Shown piece by piece: positions 21,603-33,880 of a stretch of 62,072 bases of DNA (positions are counted from its first letter, which is position 1; every line of letters starts with the position of its first letter). Origin of the DNA: an uncultured virus (IMG/VR IMGVR_UViG_2061766007_000215) (lineage: Duplodnaviria > Heunggongvirae > Uroviricota > Caudoviricetes); IMG/VR virus record IMGVR_UViG_2061766007_000215; one strand, 5' to 3'. The translations under genes and the position numbers were made by a program. The notes beneath the pieces are model-generated. The model was given only the letters and a program-made list of their open reading frames with translations, was not told the DNA's origin and searched no databases.

Positions 21603-22133
21603 ATGGCAAGTTTCGCTCCTATAAAAGGAACACAAGCACAAATAAATGCAACGCCTATTGTAGATGGACAATTTTTATGTGAAACAGACCAAAATTTAGA
21701 TGGTAAGATTTATATAGATGACGGAAACATAAGAGTTCCTATTGGTGGTGGTTCAACTGCATTACGTACACTTGGCGATGTTAATTTATCTAATCTTACA
21801 AATAAAGACATATTACAATATAATGATTCTACTCAAAAATGGGATAATGTATTGTTAATTGATTGGCTTAGAGATTCGGGTGGCAATATACAAGAACAAA
21901 TTTGTCTTGAAAGTTCAACAGATACTACATATCAATTTACTAATTTAAACAGCAATTATGGTTATGAAGCATGGATAAATTGTGCAGATAATCAATTACC
22001 ACCACAAGTAAAAGGAATTGCATTTAATAGTTCAACCTTAACGGCTACTGTTACTGTAGGTAAAGTTACAAGCGCACAAACAGGCACAGGCGGTAATCAA
22101 TGTAAATTAAGATTACGTGCAATAATGAATTAA
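21603..22133 (+). CDS. short tail fibre/adaptor protein
   Basis: PIVDGQFLCETD, LGDVNLSNLTNKDILQY..W; C-terminal domain homologous to the end of the 1048-aa fibre. Confidence 0.6.
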   Translation: MASFAPIKGTQAQINATPIVDGQFLCETDQNLDGKIYIDDGNIRVPIGGGSTALRTLGDVNLSNLTNKDILQYNDSTQKWDNVLLIDWLRDSGGNIQEQICLESSTDTTYQFTNLNSNYGYEAWINCADNQLPPQVKGIAFNSSTLTATVTVGKVTSAQTGTGGNQCKLRLRAIMN

Positions 22134-22165
22134 TGTATAATTAAAAGAAATGGAGGATATATAAT

Positions 22166-22399
22166 ATGTATTATGTAGTAAGAGTAAAGTATCTTAAAGA
22201 TGGTACAGAGAAGAGAAGTGAACTTATGGCTTATGAAACAAAGCAACAGGCTCTTTCAAAATTCCATACAAATATGGGTACAGATATGGCTGATGAAACT
22301 CTTAATGGTTCTATGTGTGTTGTTTTAAATGCACAAGGCGGTACAGTTGAAGGTGATTATTGGAATACTCCCGAACCCGAATCTAATGAAGGTGAATAA
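22166..22399 (+). CDS. hypothetical protein
   Basis: 77 aa with GGAGG RBS. Confidence 0.6.
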   Translation: MYYVVRVKYLKDGTEKRSELMAYETKQQALSKFHTNMGTDMADETLNGSMCVVLNAQGGTVEGDYWNTPEPESNEGE

Positions 22400-22425
22400 T
22401 TATTAATTAATAATAATTATTAGTT

Positions 22426-22456
22426 AATTTAGGGGATATTTATTATCCCCTAAATT
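22426..22456 (+). terminator. hairpin, probable terminator
   Basis: AATTTAGGGGATA / TATCCCCTAAATT. Confidence 0.6.
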
Positions 22457-22491
22457 TTACATATTAAAATATCAAAGAAGGAGAAATTATT

Positions 22492-22785
22492 ATGTGGCAA
22501 AGAGGTATAGGTGGTAGCACACCGACAGTTGAAATAAAAGACGTATCTACGGCAGGCACTTATACATTCGAAATGCAAAATGGAATGTTTATGTGTCGTA
22601 GAGGTGCGGAAGGAAATACATATGCTTATAATAGTTATGTATCGGGTTATGTGCTTGACGGACAGTTTAAAAAAATCGCTAATGCAACGGGTTTTAACGC
22701 AACATATAGCAACGGAGTTGTAACGGTAACGGTTGCTTCGGGAGTTGCGGCAGGTTCGCAAATGTTTATATATAAAGACAATTAA
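22492..22785 (+). CDS. small beta-rich protein, possible receptor-binding tip
   Basis: AAGGAG RBS; MWQRGIGG start; visibly higher GC than its neighbours. Confidence 0.5.
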   Translation: MWQRGIGGSTPTVEIKDVSTAGTYTFEMQNGMFMCRRGAEGNTYAYNSYVSGYVLDGQFKKIANATGFNATYSNGVVTVTVASGVAAGSQMFIYKDN

Positions 22786-22861
22786 AATCACTTGCCTATA
22801 ACCTTTATTTTTTCAAATTTATATAAAAGAATTAAATAAATAAAGTAGAAAGGTTATAAAA

Positions 22862-23053
22862 ATGTTATATATATTAACTTTAATACTTTCATTTTTTACA
22901 TTATTAATAAATATAATAATGTGTTTTTCAGAACCCGACTCATATATTTTTAAAATGTTTAATGAAACAGATATATGGGTATGTATCGGAATATGTATAG
23001 TCTTTATTATAATAGGATTAATAAGAGATAAAAGAAATGAGCGAAATAATTAG
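22862..23053 (+). CDS. small two-TM membrane protein
   Basis: Two hydrophobic stretches. Confidence 0.5.
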   Translation: MLYILTLILSFFTLLINIIMCFSEPDSYIFKMFNETDIWVCIGICIVFIIIGLIRDKRNERNN

Positions 23054-23121
23054 AATGGGTGACATTACGGGTTTTGATGATGCTGAAATTATCGAAATTG
23101 AAGATGATGTTTACTTAGTAA

Positions 23122-23391
23122 TTGATGATGATTATGATAATACAGAAGATTAAATCTAAGTTTAAAAACGCTAAAGCATTAGATATATATGTTACGTTTT
23201 CTATATTATCACTTATAATATACACTATAATTTCACAATTATTATCAATATATTATGGAGTGATATTAGATACACTAACTACTTGTTTCTTTGGATTTTT
23301 TGGTGGTGAAATTGTAACGTGTGGTCTAATTAAGATATTTAAACTTAAAGATAAAGAAAAAAACTCCGAAGAAATTGACGGAGTGGGTTGA
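23122..23391 (+). CDS. two-TM membrane protein (holin-like)
   Basis: DTLTTCFFGFFGGEIVTCGLIK; start uncertain. Confidence 0.55.
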   Translation: MMMIMIIQKIKSKFKNAKALDIYVTFSILSLIIYTIISQLLSIYYGVILDTLTTCFFGFFGGEIVTCGLIKIFKLKDKEKNSEEIDGVG

Positions 23392-23416
23392 CAATTTAAT
23401 ATTTATATGATATAAT
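23388..23416 (+). promoter_or_regulatory. consensus sigmaA promoter upstream of the ncRNA cluster
   Basis: TTGACA-17 nt-TATAAT, extended -10 TG. Confidence 0.8.
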
Positions 23417-23429
23417 ATATATGTGATAG

Positions 23430-24326
23430 AAAAAACTTATTAGTTTTTGTAAGGGTTGGGCTACCATACCCGACCCTAGTTTTAAAAGGTATAAATATAT
23501 GAAAGTAATTATAGGATTTTTATTTATAGGTTGGATATTTAATATCTGTGAAGAAATAATTGCATGAATATTTGAATGTATAGAAAATAAAGATTGGTTT
23601 TGCCTTGCATTACCATTTATTATAATTGCTCTTAGTATATTTATAACTTGGTTATTATATCGTTTTGGTATATATACAGATAAATTAATTGAACCTATCA
23701 CACATTAAGGTTGTAGTTAGTTGCCCTATATGGTCAGTTAATGATTTTGGGTGTGATATATACTGCGCCTTTAAGGGCATTAATAAATGAANNNNNNNNN
23801 NNNNNNNNNNNNNNNNNNNNNNNNNNNNNNNNNNNNNNNNNNNNNNNNNNNNNNNNNNNNNNNNNNNNNNNNNNNNNNNNNNNNNNNNNNNNNNNNNNNN
23901 NGAGTCGTAGACAAGGAGAAGGACAGGGTACGACAATTATATTAAAAGGTATAATAATATGAGCAGACTTGAAGAATTAGCAAATAGTTTATTTGGTGAA
24001 ATGAGAGATATGACACNNNNNNNNNNATCAATTTTGTACTTATTAATGGGGAACTTACACAGAATTAATAATATGGGGTGTAAGTAAGTCTGTAGTTGAG
24101 AATGGGTAAAACAGACAAGAGAGGTCTTGCTTTAATAGACGACTCACAAATACGCTTTGCGGTGTGCGGTAAAGAAACACCGTTTCTTTAAGAAATTTCT
24201 TAATGCAATGGTAATAGTTAAGAATTTGGGAATATTTCTTTTGCGTACTTTGTTGAATAACCCATAAAAAATTTCGACAAATGACGAGGTATCTACCTTG
24301 TTTGCGGTGCAAGGTTAAAAAACCGC
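23430..24326 (+). ncRNA. putative structured ncRNA cluster, copy Y (gapped)
   Basis: Five sequence/structure modules shared with 27983-28663. Confidence 0.6.
23499..23708 (+). pseudogene. small membrane-protein ORF with internal TGA
   Basis: MKVIIGFLFIGWIFNICEEIIA*IFECIENKDWFCLALPFIIIAL...; TGA at 23565. Confidence 0.4.
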
Positions 24327-24501
24327 TTAATATTTATGAGTAGANNNNNNNNNNTGAAAAGAACAATTAAAAAAGAAATATTCCAAGACAACTTTATAAA
24401 ACGTTGGACTTGTGGTGCTAAAAATCATCCCCAAGGTTGGTCTTGGTGGAAAAGGCACAATAGAAAGTTATTAAGACATAAATTAAAAGGAGATATTAAA
24501 G

Positions 24502-24719
24502 ATGAATGAAATATTAGCATTTCTTTCAGAGAATTGGTATGTAATAGCAGTAGTTTTAGTATTACTTTTTGGTATTTACTATACTATTACAAATAAACAG
24601 AAAGTTAAGATTTGGCTCGAATGGGCGGTTACTACTGTAGAAAAGGAACTTGGAACAAAAACAGGACAACTTAAATTAAGAAAGGTCTATGATATGTTTA
24701 TAGAAAGATTTCCTATCTT
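24502..24719 (+). CDS. holin, allele 1 (truncated by gap)
   Basis: N-terminal TM plus WL.WAV..E.ELG.KTGQLKLR.VYDMF (LL-H-like holin pattern). Confidence 0.7.
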
Positions 24720-24730
24720 NNNNNNNNNNA

Positions 24731-25136
24731 AAGAAAGTAAAAGGAGTTCCCAATGTTAAGGTTAAGACGAATGAAGATGATTTCTTTTTTACATTTGATG
24801 AGTTTATAAAAGTTAGAGATAAACTTGTTGAACAAGGAGATTTACAAAATGCCGTAATGTGGTCTCTTGCTTTTGATTCAGCAGGAAGACGTAATGAAAT
24901 ATTTCAAGTTAAAAAGCAAGGACTACTTGATGGTAATAAAACCAATGTTGTTATTGGTAAACGTGGGAAACAATTTCCACTTGTGTATCTCAATGACACA
25001 AAAGAATTAATTCGACAGTATTTAGAACAGCGTGGCGATGATGATATAGACTCGTTGTGGATATGTGGATCTGGTGAAAATAAACGTCCGGCTGCCCCAG
25101 AGGTTCTTTATAATCGTATGACTGGCAAAATAAACG
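24731..25136 (+). CDS. tyrosine recombinase, internal fragment
   Basis: FDSAGRRNEIFQV (box I Arg), VIGKRGK, YLEQRGDDDIDSLW. Confidence 0.75.
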
Positions 25137-25151
25137 NNNNNNNNNNATTTA

Positions 25152-25253
25152 ATGGGTATTCCACCTGCTTGTAGAAATTGTGGTAATCATCCTGTTAATG
25201 GCGGTAGTGGTATTTGTCATTGTACATTAGGTATGCCTAAAATAACTTATTAA
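25152..25253 (+). CDS. small Cys/His-rich ORF end (possible Zn-binding)
   Basis: MGIPPACRNCGNHPVNGGSGICHCTLG; second allele at 29147-29245. Confidence 0.55.
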   Translation: MGIPPACRNCGNHPVNGGSGICHCTLGMPKITY

Positions 25254-25263
25254 GGAGATAATT

Positions 25264-25440
25264 ATGAAACCACCTACACCCGAAGAAATTTATGAAGAGA
25301 TGTTAGCAATTAAAGAATTTGATGATAACCCCGAAATGGTACATATTAATTTTGATGAATATATATGTGAAGTTTTAAAATCTTATGGCTTTCATAAGGG
25401 TGTGGAAGTATTTGAAAATACTGAAATATGGTATTCTTAA
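25264..25440 (+). CDS. hypothetical 58-aa protein (allele-specific)
   Basis: AAGGAG RBS; absent between the same flanking genes at about 29250. Confidence 0.55.
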   Translation: MKPPTPEEIYEEMLAIKEFDDNPEMVHINFDEYICEVLKSYGFHKGVEVFENTEIWYS

Positions 25441-25459
25441 TATAAAGGAGATTTAAATT

Positions 25460-25786
25460 ATGAATGAAATAATAGCGTTTCTTTCAGAAAATTGGTATGT
25501 AATAGTAATGGTGTTGGTCTTGCTTTTTGCTATTTATTACACGATAACGAACAAGACTAAAGTTAAAGAATGGCTCTGTTACGCAGTAACCATAGCAGAA
25601 CGTGATTTAAAATCGGGTACAGGACAACTTAAACTTAGACAAGTTTATGATATGTTTATTGAAAGATTTCCTATATTCTCTAAACTTGTACCTTTTTCAA
25701 CGTTCTCTATGTGGGTGGACGAGGCTCTTGTGTTCCTTCGTGAACAATTAGAAAAAAATGAAGCAATTAAGAATTTTGTGGGATAA
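25460..25786 (+). CDS. holin, allele 2
   Basis: N-terminal TM, GTGQLKLRQVYDMF; directly upstream of the endolysin. Confidence 0.75.
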   Translation: MNEIIAFLSENWYVIVMVLVLLFAIYYTITNKTKVKEWLCYAVTIAERDLKSGTGQLKLRQVYDMFIERFPIFSKLVPFSTFSMWVDEALVFLREQLEKNEAIKNFVG

Positions 25787-25897
25787 AATTAAAGATATTA
25801 AAGCCACCTTAGAAATAGGGTGGCTTTATTTTATAGGTAAACCAAATGGAATAGATAGAATATATATTTTATCTATCTATAAAGGAGGTAAACTAAA

Positions 25898-27481
25898 ATG
25901 AGCAAAATCGGTCATGCAAGCCTTGGTAGTAATGGCAAGACTACAGGTGATAAATCGGGTGACCAAGGAAGGGAAGTTGTTACAACTTCTTGGATGAAGA
26001 AAAATTGGAGTTATGTTTTAAGAGCAAAGGATTCCAATATAGCAGAATTAATGTCTAAGGCTTGTGAAGCGGGTTGTGCTAATCAATGCGTGGGATATAA
26101 TCAAACCCGTAGAAACAGTTTAAAAGCACAAGCAAAATTAGTTGGAATGGATTTGTCACGTATTAAAACAGATTGTGATTGTGATTGTAGTTCATTTATG
26201 ACAGTATGTGCTGAGTGTGCAGGTATTCCTATTCCTTATAATGGAAGTAATGCCCCCACCACAAGTTCGATGAAGGTGGCGTTTATGAATACAGGATATT
26301 TTGATTTACTTACAGATAAAAAATTTCTCGATTCTGATAAGTACCTCAAAAGGGGCGATATATTAGTAGCCGTTGGTCAACACGCAATTATGTGTCTTGA
26401 GAACGGGGTTATGGCAGATATTTCACAATTAGCAAATCAACAACAAGTACCTATTAAAGCCGTTGATTTATCACAATTTAATGTGGTAACTGATTATAAA
26501 CAAATGGCTAATGAGATAAAATATATTTTCTTGCGTATAGGTAGGCGTGGTTCAACCGATGGTAATATTGTAGAAGATACAGGATTTAAGAAACATATAG
26601 ATAATTGTATTGCTAATGGAATACAAAATTTGGGTTTGTACTTTTATGACCAAAGCATTTCAGAACAAGAAGCAATAGAACAGGCTAATTGGATTGTAGA
26701 TAAATTAAAATATTATAATATTACTAAAAATATTACACTACCAATTTACATTGATTCAGAATCAAGTCCTAATCATAATGGTCGTGCAGATAATATATCT
26801 AAAGAACAACGTACTAAGAATATTATAGCATTTTGTGATAGAATTAAATTGTTAGGATTTAAAGAAGGGGTTTATTCGGCTGATAGTTGGTATAAGTCAA
26901 TGTTAGATTTTGACCAAATAAAAAATTATAATATTTGGTGTGCAAGATATTCAACTGAGAAACCAACCATACCTAAGTACGATATTTGGCAATATGGCTC
27001 AGAACAGTTTATTTGGGCGCAAAAACCGATTGATGTGAATTGGATATACAATTTATCTACTAATATCCAAAAACCCGAAAATGGGGCTAATAAGAGCCAA
27101 ATTAAGACTATTAATAATAAAGTAAAAGTAACTGATTATCTTAATATAAGAAATCAACCGTTATCTAATGCACCTATAGTTGGTAAATTATATCTTAATG
27201 ACCAAGTGCCTATATTTGGTTATGTCCATGATTGGTATATGATAAGCACAACTATGGATAAATGGGTTAGTGCTAAATATGTATTTACTAATACAGGTAA
27301 AACTACCGCAAATCTAAATTATAGAGCAGGTGTTGGAACAAATAATAAATCACTAGGTATTTATGAGAAAGGTACAGTTGTTAAACTACTTAATAAAGCA
27401 GAATTTAATGGCGATACTTGGTATTTATGTTTAGATAATAAAGATAGATTTGGTTGGTGTAGTGGGAAGTATATAGAATGA
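25898..27481 (+). CDS. endolysin: NlpC/CHAP-like + GH25 muramidase + 2 SH3b
   Basis: DCSSF...GDILV...H; AVDLSQFN...YIDSE...IWCARY...IWQY...DVN; LNIR and LNYR SH3b repeats. Confidence 0.88.
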   Translation: MSKIGHASLGSNGKTTGDKSGDQGREVVTTSWMKKNWSYVLRAKDSNIAELMSKACEAGCANQCVGYNQTRRNSLKAQAKLVGMDLSRIKTDCDCDCSSFMTVCAECAGIPIPYNGSNAPTTSSMKVAFMNTGYFDLLTDKKFLDSDKYLKRGDILVAVGQHAIMCLENGVMADISQLANQQQVPIKAVDLSQFNVVTDYKQMANEIKYIFLRIGRRGSTDGNIVEDTGFKKHIDNCIANGIQNLGLYFYDQSISEQEAIEQANWIVDKLKYYNITKNITLPIYIDSESSPNHNGRADNISKEQRTKNIIAFCDRIKLLGFKEGVYSADSWYKSMLDFDQIKNYNIWCARYSTEKPTIPKYDIWQYGSEQFIWAQKPIDVNWIYNLSTNIQKPENGANKSQIKTINNKVKVTDYLNIRNQPLSNAPIVGKLYLNDQVPIFGYVHDWYMISTTMDKWVSAKYVFTNTGKTTANLNYRAGVGTNNKSLGIYEKGTVVKLLNKAEFNGDTWYLCLDNKDRFGWCSGKYIE

Positions 27482-27732
27482 TAGTATATCGTTATGAAAA
27501 ATCAGATAAAGGTGGAGTATTTTTTACATTAAATGGAATTAATAGAAATAGTAATGTATGTTCTAATGATAATTGGATAAGTTGTTGTGAAAGTGAAGAA
27601 TTATTAAAACAATGGTTTTCAGAAAGAAACATAGATACATCTGATTGTCATATAGTTATTTATAATATTCCAAAAGAAGTAATAAAGAAAACAAGAACAC
27701 ATTTGATTTTTCCAAAAGAATATTTATATTAA
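27478..27732 (+). CDS. hypothetical protein (allele-specific)
   Basis: 84 aa overlapping the endolysin stop; missing after the second endolysin allele. Confidence 0.55.
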   Translation: MIVYRYEKSDKGGVFFTLNGINRNSNVCSNDNWISCCESEELLKQWFSERNIDTSDCHIVIYNIPKEVIKKTRTHLIFPKEYLY

Positions 27733-27741
27733 TAAAAAATT

Positions 27742-27780
27742 AAAGGGAAAAGATATATATTTTATCTTTTCCCTTTTTTT
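27742..27780. terminator. bidirectional intrinsic terminator
   Basis: AAAGGGAAAAGATA / TATCTTTTCCCTTTTTTT; near-identical copy at 32571-32608. Confidence 0.75.
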
Positions 27781-27797
27781 AGTTTNNNNNNNNNNGT

Positions 27798-27983
27798 AGA
27801 CATTCAAGGATTGAAAGTCTACAGCAAGGGACAGACGATAGGCTTAAAGATGAAAATGGTAAAAATCGTAAATATCCGATTGAGCAGATTCAAGTAATGG
27901 CCCATCATTCAGATTTATCCACTACTGCCGGATATCTTAAAAATCATGACGAGGATACGATTAATGAAATGTTTGGATTTTAA
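27798..27983 (+). CDS. tyrosine recombinase, C-terminal fragment
   Basis: RHSRIE...IQVMAHHSDLSTTAGYLK (box II His and catalytic Tyr); missing from the ORF track. Confidence 0.75.
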   Translation, partial: RHSRIESLQQGTDDRLKDENGKNRKYPIEQIQVMAHHSDLSTTAGYLKNHDEDTINEMFGF

Positions 27984-28740
27984 AAACTTAATAGTTTTGT
28001 AAGGATTAAGTCTGACTATAAATCCTAGTTTTTAATTGAACCTATCACACATTAAGGTTGTAGCGTGTTGCCCGATGTACACGGTCAGTTCGTGATTTTG
28101 GGTGTGATATATACAGAGCCTTTAAGGGCATTAATAAATGAACGAAAGTCGTTAGAGTCTTTCAGCAGAAGCGGTATCTAGTGGGATTTAATTTGCGGAT
28201 TAAATCATTCATCAAAAGTCTAAAACCGCTAATATCAATTCTGTACTTATAATGGGTAGACTTGCCTATCTATATGATAGTGGTAATTTTAGGGCGACAA
28301 GTCAGATTAGTTTGAGTCGGGGCGACTAATCAAATTATATAGGGGATTCCTGTTGGCGAGAAGTGGTAAGGCAACCATAAGTATTCCAAATAAATGCAGG
28401 TGGGAACGTGTCGTAGACAAGGAGAAGGACAGGGTACGACATTATGTGAGTGACGGGAACGTTAAAATTATGAATATTAAAGATTTACACCTTAATACAT
28501 ATAAATACCATATAAAAGTTAGCAGATTTACAGATATATATACTAACTCTTTATGGTATGCGGTTAAGGCATATATACGAAAATATATCTAATGGCAATA
28601 ACGCTTTTTGCGTTTCAGTAAAACAACAAGACCTTGTTTTCGGTGCAAGGTTAAAAAAACCGACAAACTTAGCCCTTTACGGGCAGTTATAAAGTCAAGA
28701 AAAAGGCTAACTGACTTTGTTTCGGTTGGCTTTTTTCAAT
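27983..28740 (+). ncRNA. putative structured ncRNA cluster, copy X (contiguous)
   Basis: About 750 nt with no credible ORF, dense hairpins and pseudoknots, modules conserved with copy Y. Confidence 0.65.
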
Positions 28741-28754
28741 ATTAAGGAGTAATT

Positions 28755-29107
28755 ATGGCAAAGAAAATAGAAAAAGTCCGTTTATGTAAAGGACATAATT
28801 CTCCTTTGCTTAATTGCTTAGGAGATATGAGAGAATCCGAGTTTTATACAAGTTGGTCTAAATTTACTGATGGTAAAGTTCCATATTGTAAAACTTGTGT
28901 AAATAAAATATATGAATATTATTTAAGAGAAACGGGTTCTGATAAAACTGCATTATATTTTACTTTAATGAAATTAGATATTCCCTTTATCGAGGAAGTA
29001 TATAATAGTATTGCAGAAAAGAAAACTGTAACTATTAGTACATATATCACAACCTTACAAAGAAAAACTACCTGTCAAGATATTTGGAGTGATTTTACGG
29101 CTACAGA
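28755..29107 (+). CDS. Zn-finger protein, possible terminase small subunit (truncated)
   Basis: FY.S....DGKVPYCKTC...LDIPF resembles SPbeta-like small terminase N-termini (from memory, not searched). Confidence 0.4.
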
Positions 29108-29255
29108 NNNNNNNNNNGTCCTACAGGTGTTAATTTTTATGATTTAATGGGTATTCCATCTGCTTGTAGAAATTGTGGTAACCACCCTGTTAATGGCGGT
29201 AGTGGTATTTGTCATTGTACATTAGGATTACAAACATTTTATTAAGGAGATAATT

Positions 29256-29588
29256 ATGAACGAAATAATAGCATTTCTTTCAGAAAATTGGTACGTAATA
29301 GTAATGGTGTTGGTCTTGGCGTTTGCTATTTATTACACGATAACGAATAAACAAAAAGCAAAAGAATGGTTACGTTGGTGTGTAACTGTAGCAGAAAATG
29401 AACTTGGAAAAAGTACAGGTCAACTTAAATTGCGTATGGTGTATGATATGTTTATAGAAAAGTTTCCTGTATTTTCTAGTATATTGCCCTTTAACATTTT
29501 TTCAAAGTGGGTCGATTTAGCCCTTGAATGGATGAGAGAACAAATAGATAAAAATGAAGCAATTAAGGCATTTACAGAAAATAATTAA
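29256..29588 (+). CDS. holin, allele 3
   Basis: Homologous to 25460-25786. Confidence 0.75.
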   Translation: MNEIIAFLSENWYVIVMVLVLAFAIYYTITNKQKAKEWLRWCVTVAENELGKSTGQLKLRMVYDMFIEKFPVFSSILPFNIFSKWVDLALEWMREQIDKNEAIKAFTENN

Positions 29589-29721
29589 AGAATTAATTAA
29601 ATAATCCGATATAAATAAGTACGGAATAGGGTCGCTCCCGATAAGTCGCATAGTCCAACGATTTTCCGTACTTTTTTTAAAATTTGGATTTTTTAATATT
29701 TTAATATAAAGGACACATATT

Positions 29722-30813
29722 ATGAGTATTAAAGCAAGCAATAAAGAAATAATTAAAGAAGATGAAATATGGACAGTATATGTTCATATTATACCAAAAG
29801 AAATATCAAAATACGATTATAATAAATATTATGTAGGTATTACAAGTAGACCTGTTAAATATAGGTGGAATAATGGTAATCATTATAAAGAACAATTATT
29901 TTATAATGCAATTAAAAAATATGGTTGGGATAATATAATACATTATATAGTTGCTACACATCTTTTAGAAGATGAAGCAAAAGAATTAGAAAAAACATTA
30001 ATAAATAAATTAAAATGTAATATATATAAAGATAAGTATGGTTATAACTCTACAGATGGTGGTGATGGTGCATATATATTAGGTTATGTTCCATCAGAAA
30101 ACGCACGATTAAAAATGAGTAAAAATCATTGTGACGACAATGGTAAAAAAAGAATATATCAATTTGATATAAATGGTAAATACATAAAATCTTATAGTAG
30201 TGCAATAGAGGCATCTCGTTTATTGGGATTTAAAAGTCATCATTTTAGTAAATATATAAAAAATCAAGAACTATATCGTGGATATTTGTGGGGTTATGAA
30301 TCTGATATTGAATTAATTGATAATATTCCTGTATTAAAATATAGATATAAAGAAAAAATAAAAAAGATTTCTTGTTCTAAAAAAATATATCAATTTGACC
30401 TTAATGGTAATTATATAACAACTTATTTAAATGTAAAAGACGCAGTAAATAAAGCCAATATAACATATAGTGTTGGTGAATGTATTAAAAAACACAAACC
30501 CTTTTGTGGATATTTATGGGGATTTGATAAAAATATCACATTAATTAATAATATACCTAAATTAAATTATACTTATAAAAGAATTATACCTAAAAGATGT
30601 AAACCTATATATATGTTTGATTTTTATGGAAGATTCATTAAAAAATATGATACGGCTATTGAAGCAGGAAAAGAAAATAATATTAGTAATCAATATATTA
30701 CTAGGTCGGCTAGAATATTAAATACAAGTGGCGGGTATTATTGGAGATATGAAAACGGTATAAGTTTTGATGAAAACAATAATCCTATTTTATTAATAGA
30801 GAATATAAAATAA
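29722..30813 (+). CDS. free-standing GIY-YIG homing endonuclease with NUMOD1-like repeats
   Basis: WTVYVH...KYYVGIT...RW..G...GYNST.GGDG; three IYQFD.NG.YI..Y repeats. Confidence 0.85.
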   Translation: MSIKASNKEIIKEDEIWTVYVHIIPKEISKYDYNKYYVGITSRPVKYRWNNGNHYKEQLFYNAIKKYGWDNIIHYIVATHLLEDEAKELEKTLINKLKCNIYKDKYGYNSTDGGDGAYILGYVPSENARLKMSKNHCDDNGKKRIYQFDINGKYIKSYSSAIEASRLLGFKSHHFSKYIKNQELYRGYLWGYESDIELIDNIPVLKYRYKEKIKKISCSKKIYQFDLNGNYITTYLNVKDAVNKANITYSVGECIKKHKPFCGYLWGFDKNITLINNIPKLNYTYKRIIPKRCKPIYMFDFYGRFIKKYDTAIEAGKENNISNQYITRSARILNTSGGYYWRYENGISFDENNNPILLIENIK

Positions 30814-30981
30814 TGTTAATTTTGTTGGATAAATTAAAAGATTTTAAAGCCACTCTAAAATTAGGGTGGCTTTGTTTTTTAGGTAAACCAAATAAAGATA
30901 TAGATAAAATATATTTTAATTTTATTAATAAAAATAAANNNNNNNNNNTAATATTTATGATAATTAAGGGGATGATAAAAC

Positions 30982-32565
30982 ATGAGTAAAATCGGAAATT
31001 CCTCCATAGATGAACGTAATAAAACGAGTGGTGGTAAAGCAGGTGACCAAACAGGCAGAGAAGTTTGTACAACTTCATGGTATAAAAAAAATTGGACATA
31101 TGTTTTACGTGCTAAAGATAAAAATATAGCCGAACGTATGGCAAAGGCTTGTGAAGATGGTTGTGCAAATCCCGCACTTGGTTATGACCAAAATCAGCGC
31201 AATTCTTTACGAACTCAAGCAAAACTTTGTGGTATGAATTTAGCGTTAATTAAAACTGATTGTGAATGTGATTGTAGTTCATTTATGTCAGTATGTGCTG
31301 AATGTGCAGGTGTTCCTATTTCTTATAATGGTAATAATGCACCCACTACATCATCTATGAAGTCAGCATTTATGAATACGGGTTATTTTGATTTACTTAC
31401 AGATAATAAATATCTACAAGATGATAAGTATCTTAAAAGAGGGGATATTTTAGTAGCCGTAGGTCAACATACTGTAATGATATTAGAAGATGGTGTTATG
31501 GCTGATATATCTAAAATAGAAACAGTATCAACTCAAATTAAAGCGGTTGATATTTCACAATTTAATATTATAACTGATTATAAAAAGATGACTAATGAAA
31601 TAACTCATATAATCATACGTATAGGTAGACGTGGTTCATCTGATGGAAATATAGTAGAGGACAATTCATTCCAAAAGCACATAACTAATTGTATATCTAA
31701 TGGAATAAAAAATATTGGAGTTTATTTTTACGACCAAAGCATTTCAGAACAAGAAGCAATAGAACAGGCTAATTGGATTGTAGATAAATTAAAATATTAT
31801 AATATTGATAAAAATATTACATTACCAATTTATATTGATTCAGAAGCAAGTCCTAATCATATAGGTCGTGCTGATAATATATCTAAAGACCAACGTACTA
31901 AGAATATTATAGCATTTTGTAATAGAATTAAATTATTAGGATTTAAAGAAGGGGTCTATGCGTCTGACAGTTGGTACAAGTCAATGCTTAATTTTGACCA
32001 AATAAAAAATTATAATATTTGGTGTGCAAGATATTCAACTCAAAAACCGACTATATCTAAGTATGATATTTGGCAATATGGCTCAGAACAATTTATTTGG
32101 GGTCAAAAACCGATTGACGTGAATTGGATATATACTTTATCATCTAATACTCAAAAACCCGAAAATAACCCCCCTACGTACAAAATAAAGGATATTAATA
32201 ATAGGGTTAAAGTAAGTGACTATCTTAATATAAGAAACCAACCATTACCTAATGCACCTATAATTGGTAAATTATATCCTAATGACCAAGTTCAAATATT
32301 TGGATATGTTCATGATTGGTATATGATAAGTACGACTATGGATAAATGGGTTAGTGCTAAATATATAATAACTAATACAGGTAAAACAATATCTAACCTA
32401 AATTATCGTGCAGGTGTAGGAACAAATAATAAATCATTGGGTATTTATGAAAAAGGAACTATTGTTAAATTACTTAATAAAGCAAATTATAATGGGGAAA
32501 TATGGTATTTATGTTTAGATAATCAAGATAGATTTGGTTGGTGTAGTGGAAAATATATTGAATAA
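30982..32565 (+). CDS. endolysin, second allele
   Basis: 527 aa, colinear with 25898-27481. Confidence 0.88.
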   Translation: MSKIGNSSIDERNKTSGGKAGDQTGREVCTTSWYKKNWTYVLRAKDKNIAERMAKACEDGCANPALGYDQNQRNSLRTQAKLCGMNLALIKTDCECDCSSFMSVCAECAGVPISYNGNNAPTTSSMKSAFMNTGYFDLLTDNKYLQDDKYLKRGDILVAVGQHTVMILEDGVMADISKIETVSTQIKAVDISQFNIITDYKKMTNEITHIIIRIGRRGSSDGNIVEDNSFQKHITNCISNGIKNIGVYFYDQSISEQEAIEQANWIVDKLKYYNIDKNITLPIYIDSEASPNHIGRADNISKDQRTKNIIAFCNRIKLLGFKEGVYASDSWYKSMLNFDQIKNYNIWCARYSTQKPTISKYDIWQYGSEQFIWGQKPIDVNWIYTLSSNTQKPENNPPTYKIKDINNRVKVSDYLNIRNQPLPNAPIIGKLYPNDQVQIFGYVHDWYMISTTMDKWVSAKYIITNTGKTISNLNYRAGVGTNNKSLGIYEKGTIVKLLNKANYNGEIWYLCLDNQDRFGWCSGKYIE

Positions 32566-32570
32566 AATTA

Positions 32571-32608
32571 AAGGGAAAAGATATATATTTTATCTTTTCC
32601 CTTTTTTT
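32571..32608. terminator. bidirectional terminator between convergent modules
   Basis: Hairpin between the endolysin (+) and thyX (-). Confidence 0.75.
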
Positions 32609-32611
32609 AGT

Positions 32612-33142
32612 TTATTTAAAATATATATTTAATGGTTTATTACAAGCAGAAAATTCGGGGCAACCCTTTTGATACATACACATGGGAACTAAAAACTCTT
32701 TAAATTCGGGATTAGTTTTAAGAACCTGTCTAACAATTTCTTTCATAACTTCTCTCGTTTCTTTTGATGCTTGATTGCACAATCTACGTCTTGCCATAAA
32801 CATAAGTTCTTGTGCATTTATGTACATTATATGACTAACTAATTCCCCTTGTGGCTTTTGCGCTCTTGGAATATTATTATTAGCCCTATCATCTCTTTGA
32901 GATTGAACAAAATGTTCAACTCCATATCCATGACGTACAAAATGCACACTTACCCAATAAGGTATTTCCATTTTAAATGCAAACCATAAGGTTCTGATAG
33001 GACTATGTTCTGCTCTTAATATCTTTATTTTCCATTCATCTGTAGGTAGTTGTGTTGATGATTTACCTATAGTATTTAATGCACATTGTTTACAGAATAG
33101 CCAATCTTCATCTGTGGGGTATTTTATCATTTCAATCTTCAT
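32612..33142 (-). CDS. thyX: FAD-dependent thymidylate synthase
   Basis: EHSPIR...VSVHFVRH...QSQR...RRLC..A..ETR. Confidence 0.8.
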   Translation of the reverse strand: MKIEMIKYPTDEDWLFCKQCALNTIGKSSTQLPTDEWKIKILRAEHSPIRTLWFAFKMEIPYWVSVHFVRHGYGVEHFVQSQRDDRANNNIPRAQKPQGELVSHIMYINAQELMFMARRRLCNQASKETREVMKEIVRQVLKTNPEFKEFLVPMCMYQKGCPEFSACNKPLNIYFK

Positions 33143-33326
33143 TCTTTTTCTTTTCCTTTATATCATAAATCATAATTCCATAACCAATACCTAACAAAAT
33201 AAATGTGATAATAGTTAATGTAAAATTATGTAATCCTTTAAAAAGATTAAAACAACTTAATATAACACTTATAAGAAATAATATTACACAAATAACATTT
33301 CTATTTGAATTAAACCATCTTATCAT
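33132..33326 (-). CDS. small membrane protein
   Basis: Two TM helices; allele at 40810-40998. Confidence 0.6.
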   Translation of the reverse strand: MIRWFNSNRNVICVILFLISVILSCFNLFKGLHNFTLTIITFILLGIGYGIMIYDIKEKKKNED

Positions 33327-33334
33327 ATAATCAC

Positions 33335-33880
33335 CTACTTTATTTGAATATTATAATTTGTAACTATTTTAGCACCTGTGATTTCTTTTCCATCTTTTAT
33401 AGCGTTATTAATTGCTACTTTATCGGGTTTTTCTTCAATTTTGGTCTTTATGTACTCTTTAGGAAGTTTATTAAAATCAAAAACTTCAACACTATCAGAT
33501 TTACGATAACTTATTTTAGAATGGGGTAATTCAAGTTTATATTTATTAATACCCTCAGTATCAAGATTACCTTGTTCATCTGTAAATTGACTTTTAACAA
33601 AATAATCTACACGATTCTTTAACCATTCACGCTTTTTTTCTCTTGCTTTCTTTTCTGTGGTTAGACGTTTAATTTCTTTATCAATTACGTCTATTTCCCC
33701 ATCTATCATTTTCTGTAAACAATTGGTATTATCAAGTTTTGTTTGCAGGTCTATTTGAATAGAATTATAAAGTTCATTAAACTCTTCTTCTGTTTCAATT
33801 ATTTCACCTGTGTCGGGGTCTACAGAATACTCTAATAAAGTCATCATAGCGTCCTGTATTTCAAATAAATTCTTATTCAT
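33335..33880 (-). CDS. Siphovirus Gp157 family protein
   Basis: EIKRL...ISYRKS.SVE...P.EY....PDKVAI..AIK.G.EI.GA. Confidence 0.85.
   Translation of the reverse strand: MNKNLFEIQDAMMTLLEYSVDPDTGEIIETEEEFNELYNSIQIDLQTKLDNTNCLQKMIDGEIDVIDKEIKRLTTEKKAREKKREWLKNRVDYFVKSQFTDEQGNLDTEGINKYKLELPHSKISYRKSDSVEVFDFNKLPKEYIKTKIEEKPDKVAINNAIKDGKEITGAKIVTNYNIQIK

What the first reader, a model, noticed from the sequence alone, without database searches (positions are those of the whole stretch)
28034..28142. Module M2: about 105-nt candidate double-pseudoknot RNA
Seen in both copies (also 23687-23791): AACCT/AGGTT (28039-43 / 28055-59) crosses TATCACAC/GTGTGATA (28043-50 / 28102-09). There is an internal GGTCA/TGATT hairpin whose loop varies (GTTCG vs GTTAA), and an invariant TGCCC (28069-73) complementary to GGGCA (28126-30). 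Differences between copies fall in loops and linkers. Inference: a compact, multiply pseudoknotted fold with conserved single-stranded residues is what small ribozymes and aptamers look like. It does not match the hammerhead, twister, pistol or hatchet cores as I recall them.
Basis: partly seen in the sequence, partly recalled or inferred. Interest (0 to 1): 0.7.

Follow-up and report, generated by a model that had tools for sequence, protein, structure and literature searches.

The report
Conserved long RNA hairpin, phage leader
The claimed double-pseudoknot is better read as one long, wobble-rich RNA hairpin of about 77 bases, one building block of a modular untranslated leader RNA that sits ahead of the cell-lysis genes in a small group of rumen phages; its function is still unknown.

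Summary
The stated motifs lie at the stated coordinates, and the two copies (23685-23791, 28032-28142) are 88% identical. The double-pseudoknot fold does not hold. Seven copies exist in all: two in the window and five in related rumen or gut phage contigs. In 2 of the 7, the 27-nt 3' extension that carries GGGCA is missing, so TGCCC/GGGCA is not a conserved pairing. Together they form an 11-bp helix, P2 (28063-73/28083-93), which also uses TGCCC. TATCACAC/GTGTGATA is kept in all 7 copies, with three one-sided changes that give G·U. AACCT/AGGTT never varies and cannot be tested. RNAalifold and the single-sequence folds give one nested hairpin of about 26 bp. It folds only as plus-strand RNA; the minus strand and ssDNA fold no better than shuffles. 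No Rfam family matches. M2 lies in a collinear array of optional structured modules. This array runs downstream of a perfect sigma-70 promoter and ahead of the holin and endolysin genes. Best guess: a cis-acting dsRNA processing, stability or protein-recognition hairpin. There is no evidence for a ribozyme or an aptamer.

The parts
28036..28114 (+). M2 core, copy B: extended imperfect RNA hairpin with its invariant 5' flank AUUGAACC
   Evidence: CM R1 hit at 28034-28114, 95.4 bits. MFE -20.5 kcal/mol as a nested hairpin.
28043..28050 (+). Outer helix, 5' strand (TATCACAC). It pairs with 28102-28109 (GTGTGATA).
   Evidence: The 7 pairs counted are paired in 7 of 7 copies. Three of those pairs show a one-sided change to G·U or U·G. 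In run X7, two loose ends read TACCATAC and GTATGGTT, which would be two compensatory changes if both lie on one contig.
28102..28109 (+). Outer helix, 3' strand (GTGTGATA)
28052..28059 (+). Middle helix, 5' strand (UUAAGGUU). It pairs with 28094-28101 (GAUUUUGG).
   Evidence: Predicted by RNAalifold and by the MFE folds. The helix is nearly invariant, with one G·G break in L005, so covariation cannot prove it.
28094..28101 (+). Middle helix, 3' strand
28063..28093 (+). P2: apical helix 28063-73 / 28083-93 with a loop of variable length.
   Evidence: 11 pairs, 87% of cells paired, and 3 pairs changed on both sides. Loop-length variants and the changes G88>A and G67>A appear in runs X5 and X7.
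28039..28043 (+).
   Evidence: Invariant in 7 of 7 copies, so untestable. No other conserved complement to the 5' flank was found in the 8 leaders.
28110..28136 (+). M2ext: optional 27-nt extension with its own small hairpin (GCCU-UUAA-GGGC, 28118-28129).
   Evidence: Absent from L001 and L005. It folds as a local hairpin in the L010 leader fold.
23689..23763 (+). M2 core, copy A: outer helix 23696-23703/23751-23758, P2 23716-23726/23732-23742
   Evidence: CM R1 hit at 23687-23763, 106.1 bits. MFE -18.8 kcal/mol.
23764..23791 (+). M2ext, copy A, followed by a 110-N masked stretch
23388..23416 (+). Perfect sigma-70 promoter (TTGACA-17-TATAAT, with TG upstream of the -10). It heads the leader that contains copy A.
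   Evidence: 12 of 12 consensus matches. The same promoter is present in L001, L004, L005, L010 and L011.
23424..23487 (+). M1, copy A: two hairpins, the second followed by AGUUUU (terminator-like). Copy B is at 27982-28031.
   Evidence: Stem differences between copies (GGGUUGGG/CCCGACCC vs GGAUU/AAUCC) are read directly from the sequence.
23499..23708 (+). Optional 69-codon small membrane ORF. Its TAA stop lies in the 5' arm of M2. Copy A has an in-frame TGA at 23565-23567.
   Evidence: The ORF is intact only in L001 and is absent from winB, L004, L005, L010 and L011.
28137..28249 (+). Modules C1-C2-C3 directly 3' of M2. C1 and C3 form a hairpin, and C2 is an optional insertion at its apical loop.
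28250..28441 (+). Modules E1, F1 and M3 of the same leader
28631..28662 (+). M5: small hairpin whose loop is complementary to the sequence after an A-run. Copy A is at 24295-24326.

Best explanation
M2 is a plus-strand RNA element of about 77 nt that folds into one extended, imperfect, G·U-rich hairpin. The hairpin has three parts: an outer helix (TATCACAC/GTGTGATA), a wobble-rich middle helix (UUAAGGUU/GAUUUUGG), and a variable apical helix P2. It is not a double pseudoknot. M2 is one module of a collinear array of optional structured modules, 0.5-1.2 kb long. In a narrow clade of rumen and gut Clostridia-type phages this array forms the untranslated leader (or a separate ncRNA) between a consensus sigma-70 promoter and the late/lysis genes. 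Shown: the element, its conservation, its strand, helix P2 and the outer helix. Inferred: it acts in cis on the transcript as a double-stranded-RNA signal. The most likely role is an RNase III-type processing or stability site; a hairpin bound by a sequence-specific protein is also possible. Either role would set how much of the leader and the downstream mRNA survives. I put about 0.7 on the structural reading and only about 0.25 on the RNase III mechanism specifically.
For: Seven copies score 89.8-107.1 bits with the model, and nothing else does in 93,770 bases. RNAalifold gives one nested hairpin of 26 pairs, 3 of them with compensatory changes. The same fold is the MFE in 5 of 5 sequences folded, at -18.8 to -27.8 kcal/mol with z from -1.26 to -4.79. 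It reappears when the whole 741-nt L010 leader is folded. On my structure the covariation score is 0.182 against 0.126±0.016 in shuffles (2 of 500 reach it), and every slid control is at or below 0.056. Three independent one-sided changes in the outer helix all give G·U (L001, L005, L011). Strand asymmetry: the minus strand folds at z 0.02, 0.21 and -1.25, and ssDNA parameters give z -0.14, 0.43, -1.79 and -1.34. A perfect promoter lies upstream and is conserved in 6 of 6 promoter-bearing leaders. A 221-nt metatranscriptome contig covers 28093-28249; this is weak evidence because DNA carry-over is possible. About 26 bp of imperfect dsRNA meets the length requirement of RNase III substrates (established knowledge, recalled).
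Against: There are only 7 copies, and 4 are nearly identical, so statistical power is low. The tool's own caveat says related sequences can beat the shuffles without any structure. For winB and winA alone, MFE z-scores are modest (-1.26, -1.75). The middle helix is nearly invariant and therefore unproven, and L005 breaks one of its pairs. The 5' flank AAUUGAACC is invariant but unpaired in the nested model, so the nested model leaves it unexplained. The lower stem is conserved in sequence, not only in pairing, which fits specific recognition or a tertiary core better than a generic RNase III site. No RNA ends, cleavage data or binding protein are known. Copy B has no recognisable promoter of its own. 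L006 has the downstream modules without M2, so M2 is dispensable for them.
Confidence: 0.55

Rival explanations
1. M2 forms a single H-type pseudoknot. AACC(U)/(A)GGUU forms a hairpin, and its loop AUCACAC pairs with the downstream GUGUGAU. P2 sits as a hairpin inside the long third loop. This sequence-invariant core would be a tertiary fold such as an aptamer, a switch or a protein site. It might alternate with the rod form.
For: AACCU and AGGUU are invariant in 7 of 7 copies, and the conserved block starts exactly at AUUGAACC whatever lies upstream. No other conserved partner for that flank was found in the 8 leaders. Sequence conservation sits in the core while variation sits in P2. The neighbouring module M5 has the same hairpin-loop-to-3' pairing logic. 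With U43 as a one-base first loop the topology is sterically possible (inference).
Against: There is no covariation for the crossing hairpin. A rough energy estimate gives -11.6 to -14.2 kcal/mol for the pseudoknot against -20.5 for the nested rod in copy B, assuming a pseudoknot penalty of 7-9.6 kcal/mol. The nested fold is the consensus prediction. No Rfam riboswitch or ribozyme matches.
Confidence: 0.15
2. One reading: a 105-nt double pseudoknot made of AACCT/AGGTT, TATCACAC/GTGTGATA, GGTCA/TGATT and TGCCC/GGGCA, acting as a small self-cleaving ribozyme or an aptamer.
For: All four complementarities exist in both window copies. On the 7-copy alignment 99.3% of cells pair. One compensatory cell in GGTCA/TGATT comes from L005.
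Against: The GGGCA arm is absent in 2 of 7 copies, and also in the X7 variant, whose sequence diverges right after the outer helix. The coordinated changes at 28064/65 and 28092/91 go unexplained by this model but are explained by P2. Five-base complements are expected by chance. No hammerhead, twister, twister-sister, pistol, hatchet or HDV-like model matches at E<=10.
Confidence: 0.02
3. M2 has no function of its own as an RNA. It is a conserved junction or cassette in a hyperplastic phage region, kept by recent common descent, gene conversion between the two units, or its use as short homology for module shuffling, in the manner of PeSL cassettes.
For: Modules are present or absent in blocks between closely related phages. 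The family is tiny and recent: 7 copies, 1 of 81 genomes of the family, and none in 17 loci of more distant relatives. M2 and C1 start with similar words, AAUUGAAC and AAAUGAAC (read from the sequence).
Against: M2 is 88% identical between the window's two units while the flanking non-coding DNA is not alignable and the paralogous genes are 75-80% identical. Compensatory and wobble-preserving changes, together with the strand asymmetry, indicate selection on an RNA fold. M2 contains no promoter-like site of its own on the plus strand. The only terminator-like site listed inside it is the short copy-B hairpin at 28080-28094.
Confidence: 0.15
4. M2 is one peripheral domain of a single large, modular structured ncRNA formed by the whole 0.5-1.2 kb leader. 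Its function would lie in the assembled RNA, as with ROOL or GOLLD-type phage RNAs, and not in M2 alone.
For: The module order is collinear in 8 of 8 leaders, apart from two local rearrangements in the window. C2 is an optional insertion at the apical loop of the C1/C3 hairpin. Several hairpins are capped by GAAA. The L010 leader folds at z -3.47.
Against: There is no match to ROOL, GOLLD, OLE or any other Rfam family. Almost every module is optional, M2 included. No long-range covariation was seen. The winB leader region alone folds at only z -1.25.
Confidence: 0.13

Closest known systems
RNase III processing hairpins in phage polycistronic transcripts (T7 R1.1-type sites; Bacillus phage SP82 Bs-RNase III sites)
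   Same: An imperfect hairpin of about 25 bp with bulges. It lies between genes in a phage transcript driven by a strong host-type promoter. It is strand-specific.
   Different: No cleavage has been shown. There is no sequence similarity. The lower stem of M2 is conserved in sequence, which generic RNase III sites do not need. The T7 and SP82 facts are recalled. PMC1935012 was seen only as a search listing that contains the term SP82.
PeSL (promoter-early stem-loop) mobile regulatory cassettes of T4-type phages (PMC2839356, PMC4122927; title and start of abstract seen)
   Same: Conserved non-coding cassettes in a hyperplastic phage region. Their presence or absence and their flanks mark insertions, deletions and swaps of small ORFs.
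   Different: PeSL units are promoter-plus-terminator composites repeated many times per genome. M2 has no promoter-like site on the plus strand, and its only terminator-like site is a short copy-B hairpin. It occurs once per unit and shows RNA-level covariation.
Small self-cleaving ribozymes found in phage-like and rumen metagenome contexts (pistol, hatchet, twister, twister-sister, hammerhead)
   Same: Size class, phage and rumen context, and (for pistol) a hairpin loop that pairs with a 3' segment.
   Different: No Rfam model matches at E<=10. There is no conserved catalytic core. The crossing helix is unproven. The pistol architecture is recalled, not tested.
Small H-type pseudoknot aptamers (preQ1-I, SAM-II and similar)
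   Same: The hairpin-loop-to-3'-tail pairing logic, which fits the neighbouring module M5 more closely than it fits M2.
   Different: No Rfam hit for M2. For M5 there is only an 8.5-bit, E=6.2 partial match to SAM_alpha. The third loop of M2 would be 42 nt with an inserted hairpin.
ROOL / GOLLD large ornate phage-associated RNAs (PMC12286853; start of abstract seen)
   Same: Rumen or phage origin, and large non-coding structured regions with optional parts.
   Different: No covariance-model match. Here the modules are individually optional. No evidence for one global fold.

Membership tests
Known self-cleaving ribozyme classes (Rfam hammerhead, twister, twister-sister, pistol, hatchet, HDV-like) | Match to the family covariance model (conserved core plus helices) | tested here: not met
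   Zero matches at gathering score over the whole window. No ribozyme family at E<=10 in 22000-33500, in 28020-28160, or in L001 and L004-L006.
Known self-cleaving ribozyme classes | Site-specific Mg-dependent self-cleavage | not testable with these tools
   Only contigs, not raw reads, were available for the RNA runs.
   The partner arm is absent in 2 of 7 copies (L001, L005). The remaining 5 show no compensatory change. TGCCC pairs within P2 instead.
   The long-range helix is kept in 7 of 7 copies with three G·U-preserving changes. AACCT/AGGTT is invariant, and a nested alternative for AGGTT is predicted.
RNase III-type dsRNA processing site | About 20 bp or more of mostly continuous dsRNA in a hairpin | tested here: met
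   26 predicted pairs, interrupted by a 1-nt bulge, a 3-nt bulge and one or two mismatches.
RNase III-type dsRNA processing site | Located within a transcribed non-coding stretch of a longer transcript | tested here: inconclusive
   A perfect promoter lies upstream of copy A and of 5 homologs. One low-depth metatranscriptome contig was found. Transcript ends are not known.
RNase III-type dsRNA processing site | Staggered double-strand cleavage by RNase III | not testable with these tools
   Needs an in vitro digest, or end-mapping in wild type against an rnc mutant.
Intrinsic terminator | GC-rich hairpin directly followed by a U-tract | tested here: not met
   The scan flags only a 5-bp sub-hairpin at 28080-28094 followed by ATTTTGGG in copy B. 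The tract is UUUU, or UUU in L005, and pairs within the middle helix.
PeSL-like regulatory cassette | Composite of an early promoter and a terminator stem-loop, repeated at module borders | tested here: not met
   No promoter-like site lies inside M2 on the plus strand. There is one copy per unit.
ROOL / GOLLD / OLE large RNAs | Match to the Rfam model | tested here: not met
   No hit.
Protein-coding sequence | Reading frame kept across copies | tested here: not met
   The P2 loop length differs by 1, 4 and 6 nt relative to winA. The only overlapping ORF, the 69-codon ORF ending in the 5' arm, is absent in 5 of 7 copies. The two substitutions in that arm fall at first codon positions (read from the sequence).

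The most novel reading that the evidence does not exclude
The sequence-invariant lower part of M2 is a conformational switch or a true pseudoknot core. In this reading AUUGAACC-UAUCACAC-AUUAAGGUUGUA pairs with UGAUUUUGGGUGUGAUA. M2 and its neighbours would then be domains of a previously undescribed, modular, promoter-driven phage ncRNA that controls lysis-gene expression. The neighbours include M5, a small H-type-pseudoknot candidate found in unrelated phage contigs.
Probability: 0.12. Interest if true: 0.6.

Novelty: new member of a known kind. Interest (0 to 1): 0.3.

Why it matters
If the reading is right, M2 is an unannotated, structure-conserved RNA hairpin in the control region ahead of the lysis genes of uncultured rumen phages. 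It adds an example of RNA-level regulation or processing in Firmicutes-type phages, where little is known. It also flags a whole leader built from interchangeable structured modules. It does not offer a new ribozyme or riboswitch class. The practical value is modest: a defined 77-nt target for RNase III digestion and structure probing. It is also a caution that short crossing complementarities in AT-rich DNA are expected by chance.

Tried and rejected
- **Known RNA families.** Rfam found no family for M2 or its neighbours, at gathering score or by E-value on five stretches. The only hits were chance-level ones: mir-32 at E=1.9 over M2, DUF2815 RNA at E=0.94 over M1 of L001, Fusobacteriales-1 at E=0.066 in L006, and SAM_alpha at E=6.2 over M5.
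- **tRNA or tmRNA.** ARAGORN found none in the window or in L001.
- **Named phages.** blastn of 27990-28480 found no match. The endolysin has only relatives below 60% identity.
- **Own genome.** No whole genome is held for this window.
- **More homologs.**
  - Exact-pattern scans of viral contigs returned only one relative contig, plus one chance hit in a coding region, L007.
  - The single metagenome scan gave 3 loci, and the single genome scan gave 2.
  - The covariance model found nothing in 17 loci around more distant relatives of the upstream membrane protein (best E=1.6). It found 1 of 81 genomes of the Coprobacillaceae-MAG family, and nothing in L036 or L037.
  - BLAST of all the leaders against those 17 loci found nothing.
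- **Coding explanation.** Rejected because of frame-breaking indels and the loss of the ORF in most copies.
- **ssDNA hairpin or minus-strand RNA.** Rejected because these fold no better than shuffles.
- **Terminator or promoter inside M2.** Rejected.
- **Long-range partner for the 5' flank.** None is conserved.
- **Earlier notes of this scan.** Nothing relevant.
- **Sequencing runs.** Contigs of 3 DNA runs and 1 RNA run were laid. Parts without cover, and contig ends, say nothing about transcript ends.
Full report
**What was claimed and what is in the sequence.** BLAST between the two halves of the region aligns 23685-23791 with 28032-28142 at 88.3%. Taken alone, the complementarities are unremarkable. 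In 2000 dinucleotide shuffles of 28034-28142 the mean was 5.6 five-base complementary pairs against 9 observed, and 14% of shuffles reached 9. An inverted repeat of 8 bases or more appeared in 6% of shuffles. The case therefore rests on conservation and covariation.

**Context.** The window is 29.7% G+C and carries many masked N runs, one of which (23792-23901) cuts off copy A right after M2. It is a tailed-phage genome. Large structural ORFs run on the plus strand up to about 22 kb, and replication and nucleotide-metabolism genes run on the minus strand from 32.6 kb. Between them lies a duplicated lysis region.
- Two 527-aa endolysin paralogs (ELLD + GH25 + SH3_3) lie at 25898-27481 and 30982-32565.
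- There are three holin-like paralogs.
- A GIY-YIG/NUMOD1 homing endonuclease lies at 29722-30813.

The two M2 copies sit at the head of the two units. The paralogous genes are 75-80% identical, and most of the non-coding DNA between them cannot be aligned. A handful of short non-coding blocks are 88-97% identical, M2 among them. Upstream of copy A lies a perfect extended sigma-70 promoter at 23388-23416, with 12 of 12 consensus matches and a TG. Copy B has no comparable promoter. Runs that hold the stretch are mainly bovine, sheep and other animal-gut metagenomes.

**Homologs.** No named phage resembles the region, and no whole genome is held for the window. Pattern and protein-anchored scans recovered five further M2 copies:
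- L001, an IMG/VR contig;
- L004 and L005, metagenome contigs;
- L010, a sheep-colon Clostridia MAG contig, and L011, a Coprobacillaceae MAG contig.

L006 has the downstream modules but no M2. A covariance model built from the seven copies scores them at 89.8-107.1 bits and finds nothing else in 93,770 bases. It finds nothing in 17 loci around more distant relatives of the upstream membrane protein (best E=1.6). It finds 1 of 81 genomes of the family of the L011 MAG, and nothing in L036 or L037. The family is therefore small and young, which limits statistical power.

**Testing the proposed fold.**
- *TGCCC/GGGCA.* The GGGCA arm lies in a 27-nt extension (28110-28136) that is simply absent in L001 and L005. 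In L001, GTGTGATA runs straight into the next module. A variant in run X7 also diverges directly after the outer helix. The extension can form its own little hairpin. This pairing is not a conserved feature.
- *GGTCA/TGATT with a 'variable loop'.* The loop differences (GTTCG vs GTTAA) change together with the upstream 'linker' (GCGTG vs GTTAG). Pairing 28063-73 with 28083-93 gives an 11-bp helix, P2. In P2, column pair 42/72 reads U-A (5 copies), C-G (1) and G-C (1). Column pair 43/71 reads U-A (6) and G-C (1). Column pair 45/69 reads A-U, G·U and G-C. Overall 87% of cells pair, and 3 pairs change on both sides. TGCCC is part of this helix. Variants in runs X5 and X7 fit it (G67>A, G88>A and several loop-length changes at 28071-28082).
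- *TATCACAC/GTGTGATA.* It is paired in 7 of 7 copies. The only three substitutions (A>G in L001, A>G in L005, C>T in L011) each leave a G·U or U·G pair. Two loose ends from run X7 read TACCATAC on the 5' side and GTATGGTT on the 3' side. If they belong to one contig, they are two clean compensatory pairs. I could not verify that.
- *AACCT/AGGTT.* It is invariant, so it is neither supported nor refuted.

For the whole structure, mine has a covariation score of 0.182 against 0.126±0.016 in shuffles (2 of 500 reach it), and all slid controls are at or below 0.056. Four of the seven rows are near-identical.

**Nested hairpin against pseudoknot.** RNAalifold returns one fully nested hairpin of 26 pairs. 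It consists of the outer helix, a middle helix UUAAGGUU/GAUUUUGG (5 of its 8 pairs are G·U), a 3-nt bulge, and then P2. The same fold is the MFE of each of the 5 sequences folded. The energies are -20.5, -18.8, -27.8, -19.7 and -19.9 kcal/mol, with z of -1.26, -1.75, -4.79, -2.77 and -2.25. It survives when the whole 741-nt L010 leader is folded. A rough estimate for copy B compares the two folds. The pseudoknot sums the P1+P2 energy (-9.6), the stacking of the 7-bp loop helix (about -11.6) and a pseudoknot penalty of 7-9.6. That gives -11.6 to -14.2 kcal/mol, against -20.5 for the rod. The penalty value is recalled, not computed. The single pseudoknot is not excluded. The 5' flank AUUGAACC is invariant whatever lies upstream, is unpaired in the rod, and has no other conserved partner in the 8 leaders.

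**RNA, and on which strand.** Because of the many G·U pairs, the minus strand folds no better than shuffles (z 0.02, 0.21, -1.25). The plus strand folded with DNA parameters does no better either (z -0.14, 0.43, -1.79, -1.34). Together with the conserved promoter, this points to plus-strand RNA. One 221-nt contig of a bovine metatranscriptome covers 28093-28249 at low depth. That is only a hint, because DNA can be present in such libraries and contigs show neither strand nor ends.

**Not coding.** In winA and L001 a 69-codon small membrane ORF ends with its TAA inside the 5' arm of M2. In winA that ORF carries an in-frame TGA at 23565-23567 where L001 has TGG. The ORF is absent in the other five copies. 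The two substitutions in the arm fall at first codon positions, and the P2 length changes are not multiples of three.

**The larger picture.** All eight leaders share one collinear order of blocks. Optional blocks are shown in brackets: promoter, (T1), M1, (S1), (ORF69), M2 core, (M2ext), C1, (C2), C3, (D1), (E1), (F1), (M3), (G1), H1, M5, and then a 77-codon ORF, holin-like genes and the endolysin. The window shows two local rearrangements (sequences). C2 sits as an insertion at the apical loop of a hairpin formed by C1 and C3, and several hairpins are capped by GAAA (read from the sequences). This looks like a long structured leader or ncRNA built of exchangeable domains. M2 is one of its more constant domains, present in 7 of 8 leaders.

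**How it most likely works.**
- *Shown:* a conserved, plus-strand, hairpin-forming RNA module downstream of a consensus promoter and upstream of late/lysis genes.
- *Inferred:* it acts in cis as a double-stranded RNA signal. About 26 bp of imperfect duplex with bulges is the shape of RNase III sites in phage polycistronic transcripts (recalled knowledge of T7 and SP82). The only, non-significant, Rfam resemblance is to a pre-miRNA hairpin (mir-32, E=1.9).
- *Qualification:* the sequence invariance of the lower stem fits a sequence-specific protein site or a tertiary core at least as well.

I therefore put only about 0.25 on RNase III processing specifically.

**Comparison with known systems.** No ribozyme, riboswitch or large-RNA family of Rfam 15 matches. 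The element is not a member of any of them. It works most like phage RNase III/stability hairpins. Its genomic behaviour resembles the PeSL cassettes of T4-type phages (PMC2839356 and PMC4122927; titles and abstract starts seen). It lacks their promoter-plus-terminator composition, however: one search lists no plus-strand promoter inside M2, and the only terminator-like site there is the short copy-B hairpin at 28080-28094.

**Verdict.** The double-pseudoknot ribozyme or aptamer reading is not supported. M2 is a new, unannotated member of a familiar kind, a conserved cis-acting hairpin in a phage leader RNA, with its function unproven. Interest is modest at 0.3. The modular leader as a whole, and module M5, are the more intriguing leads.

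**Limits.** There are seven copies, four of them nearly the same. There was one metagenome scan and one genome scan, each with an exact pattern. No raw RNA reads were available. Pseudoknot energies are approximate. Literature was seen only as search listings and abstract starts. I did not search the literature for this exact element beyond those three searches.

Noticed in passing
window 24295-24326 and 28631-28662; also L001, L004, L005, L006, L011, L036, L037: Module M5 looks like a small H-type pseudoknot. The stem is CCUUG/CAAGG. Loop bases GCGG are complementary to CCGC, which lies just after an A-run (UUAAAAAA). Copy winB has UCGG...CCGA instead, a compensatory G-C to U-A change. L001 has one mismatch. 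The same 28-32 nt occur in two otherwise unrelated, higher-GC phage contigs (L036, L037), upstream of small membrane-protein genes. There is no significant Rfam hit.
   Followed up: partly
window 23388-24340 and 27982-28737; L001 1613-2815; L004 1272-2284; L010 1023-1795; L011 and L005 (reverse strand): The whole 0.5-1.2 kb non-coding stretch is a collinear array of optional conserved modules. They vary in presence or absence between closely related phages. None of them has an Rfam match.
   Followed up: partly
window 23388-23416: Perfect TTGACA-17-TATAAT promoter with TG. The stop codon of the upstream 85-89-aa membrane protein overlaps its -35 box. It is conserved in five related contigs.
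   Followed up: yes
window 23499-23708: A 69-codon small hydrophobic ORF, intact in L001, carries an in-frame TGA at 23565-23567 where L001 has TGG. This is either a pseudogene or a recoded stop. Other large ORFs in the window read normally under table 11.
   Followed up: partly
window 28181-28232: Module C2 (52 nt, itself an 8-bp hairpin) is present or absent precisely at the apical loop of the hairpin formed by C1 and C3. It behaves like an expansion segment of an RNA helix.
   Followed up: partly
window 24188-24203; also in L001, L004, L005, L006, L010, L011: A perfect 16-bp palindrome, TTAAGAAATTTCTTAA (module H1), lies just upstream of M5. It is shaped like an operator for a dimeric DNA-binding protein.
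   Followed up: no
window 23904-23935 and 28410-28441: Module M3 is 100% identical between the two units. It is a hairpin (GUCGUA...UACGAC) whose purine-rich loop has two AAGGA motifs, like a Shine-Dalgarno sequence or a CsrA site. In copy A it lies directly before a ribosome-binding site.
   Followed up: no
L001 1641-1745; L011 (reverse strand, just after the promoter): An optional module of about 105 nt (T1) sits right after the promoter. Its closing stem is AUGCGG/CCGCAU, and it has a T-arm-like GGG-UGCAAAU-CCC hairpin. ARAGORN finds no tRNA in L001, and Rfam finds nothing there.
   Followed up: partly
window 25898-27481, 30982-32565, 29722-30813: Two 527-aa endolysin paralogs (ELLD+GH25+SH3_3, about 80% nt identity) lie with a free-standing GIY-YIG/NUMOD1 homing endonuclease gene just upstream of the second one.
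   Followed up: no
window 32612-33142 (-): A 176-aa ORF matches only the last 42 positions of the ThyX (Thy1) profile. The counterpart ORF in L001 is 239 aa. The gene may be truncated or split.
   Followed up: no
window 23959-24016, 24326-24335, 25147-25231, 29142-29226: The 77-codon ORF that follows the leader in the relatives (MSRLEEL...CRNCGNHPVNGGSG...) is broken up and rearranged in both units of the window. Its 3' part is 96% identical between the units.
   Followed up: no
window 27742-27776 and 32570-32604: A near-identical bidirectional terminator hairpin closes each unit.
   Followed up: no
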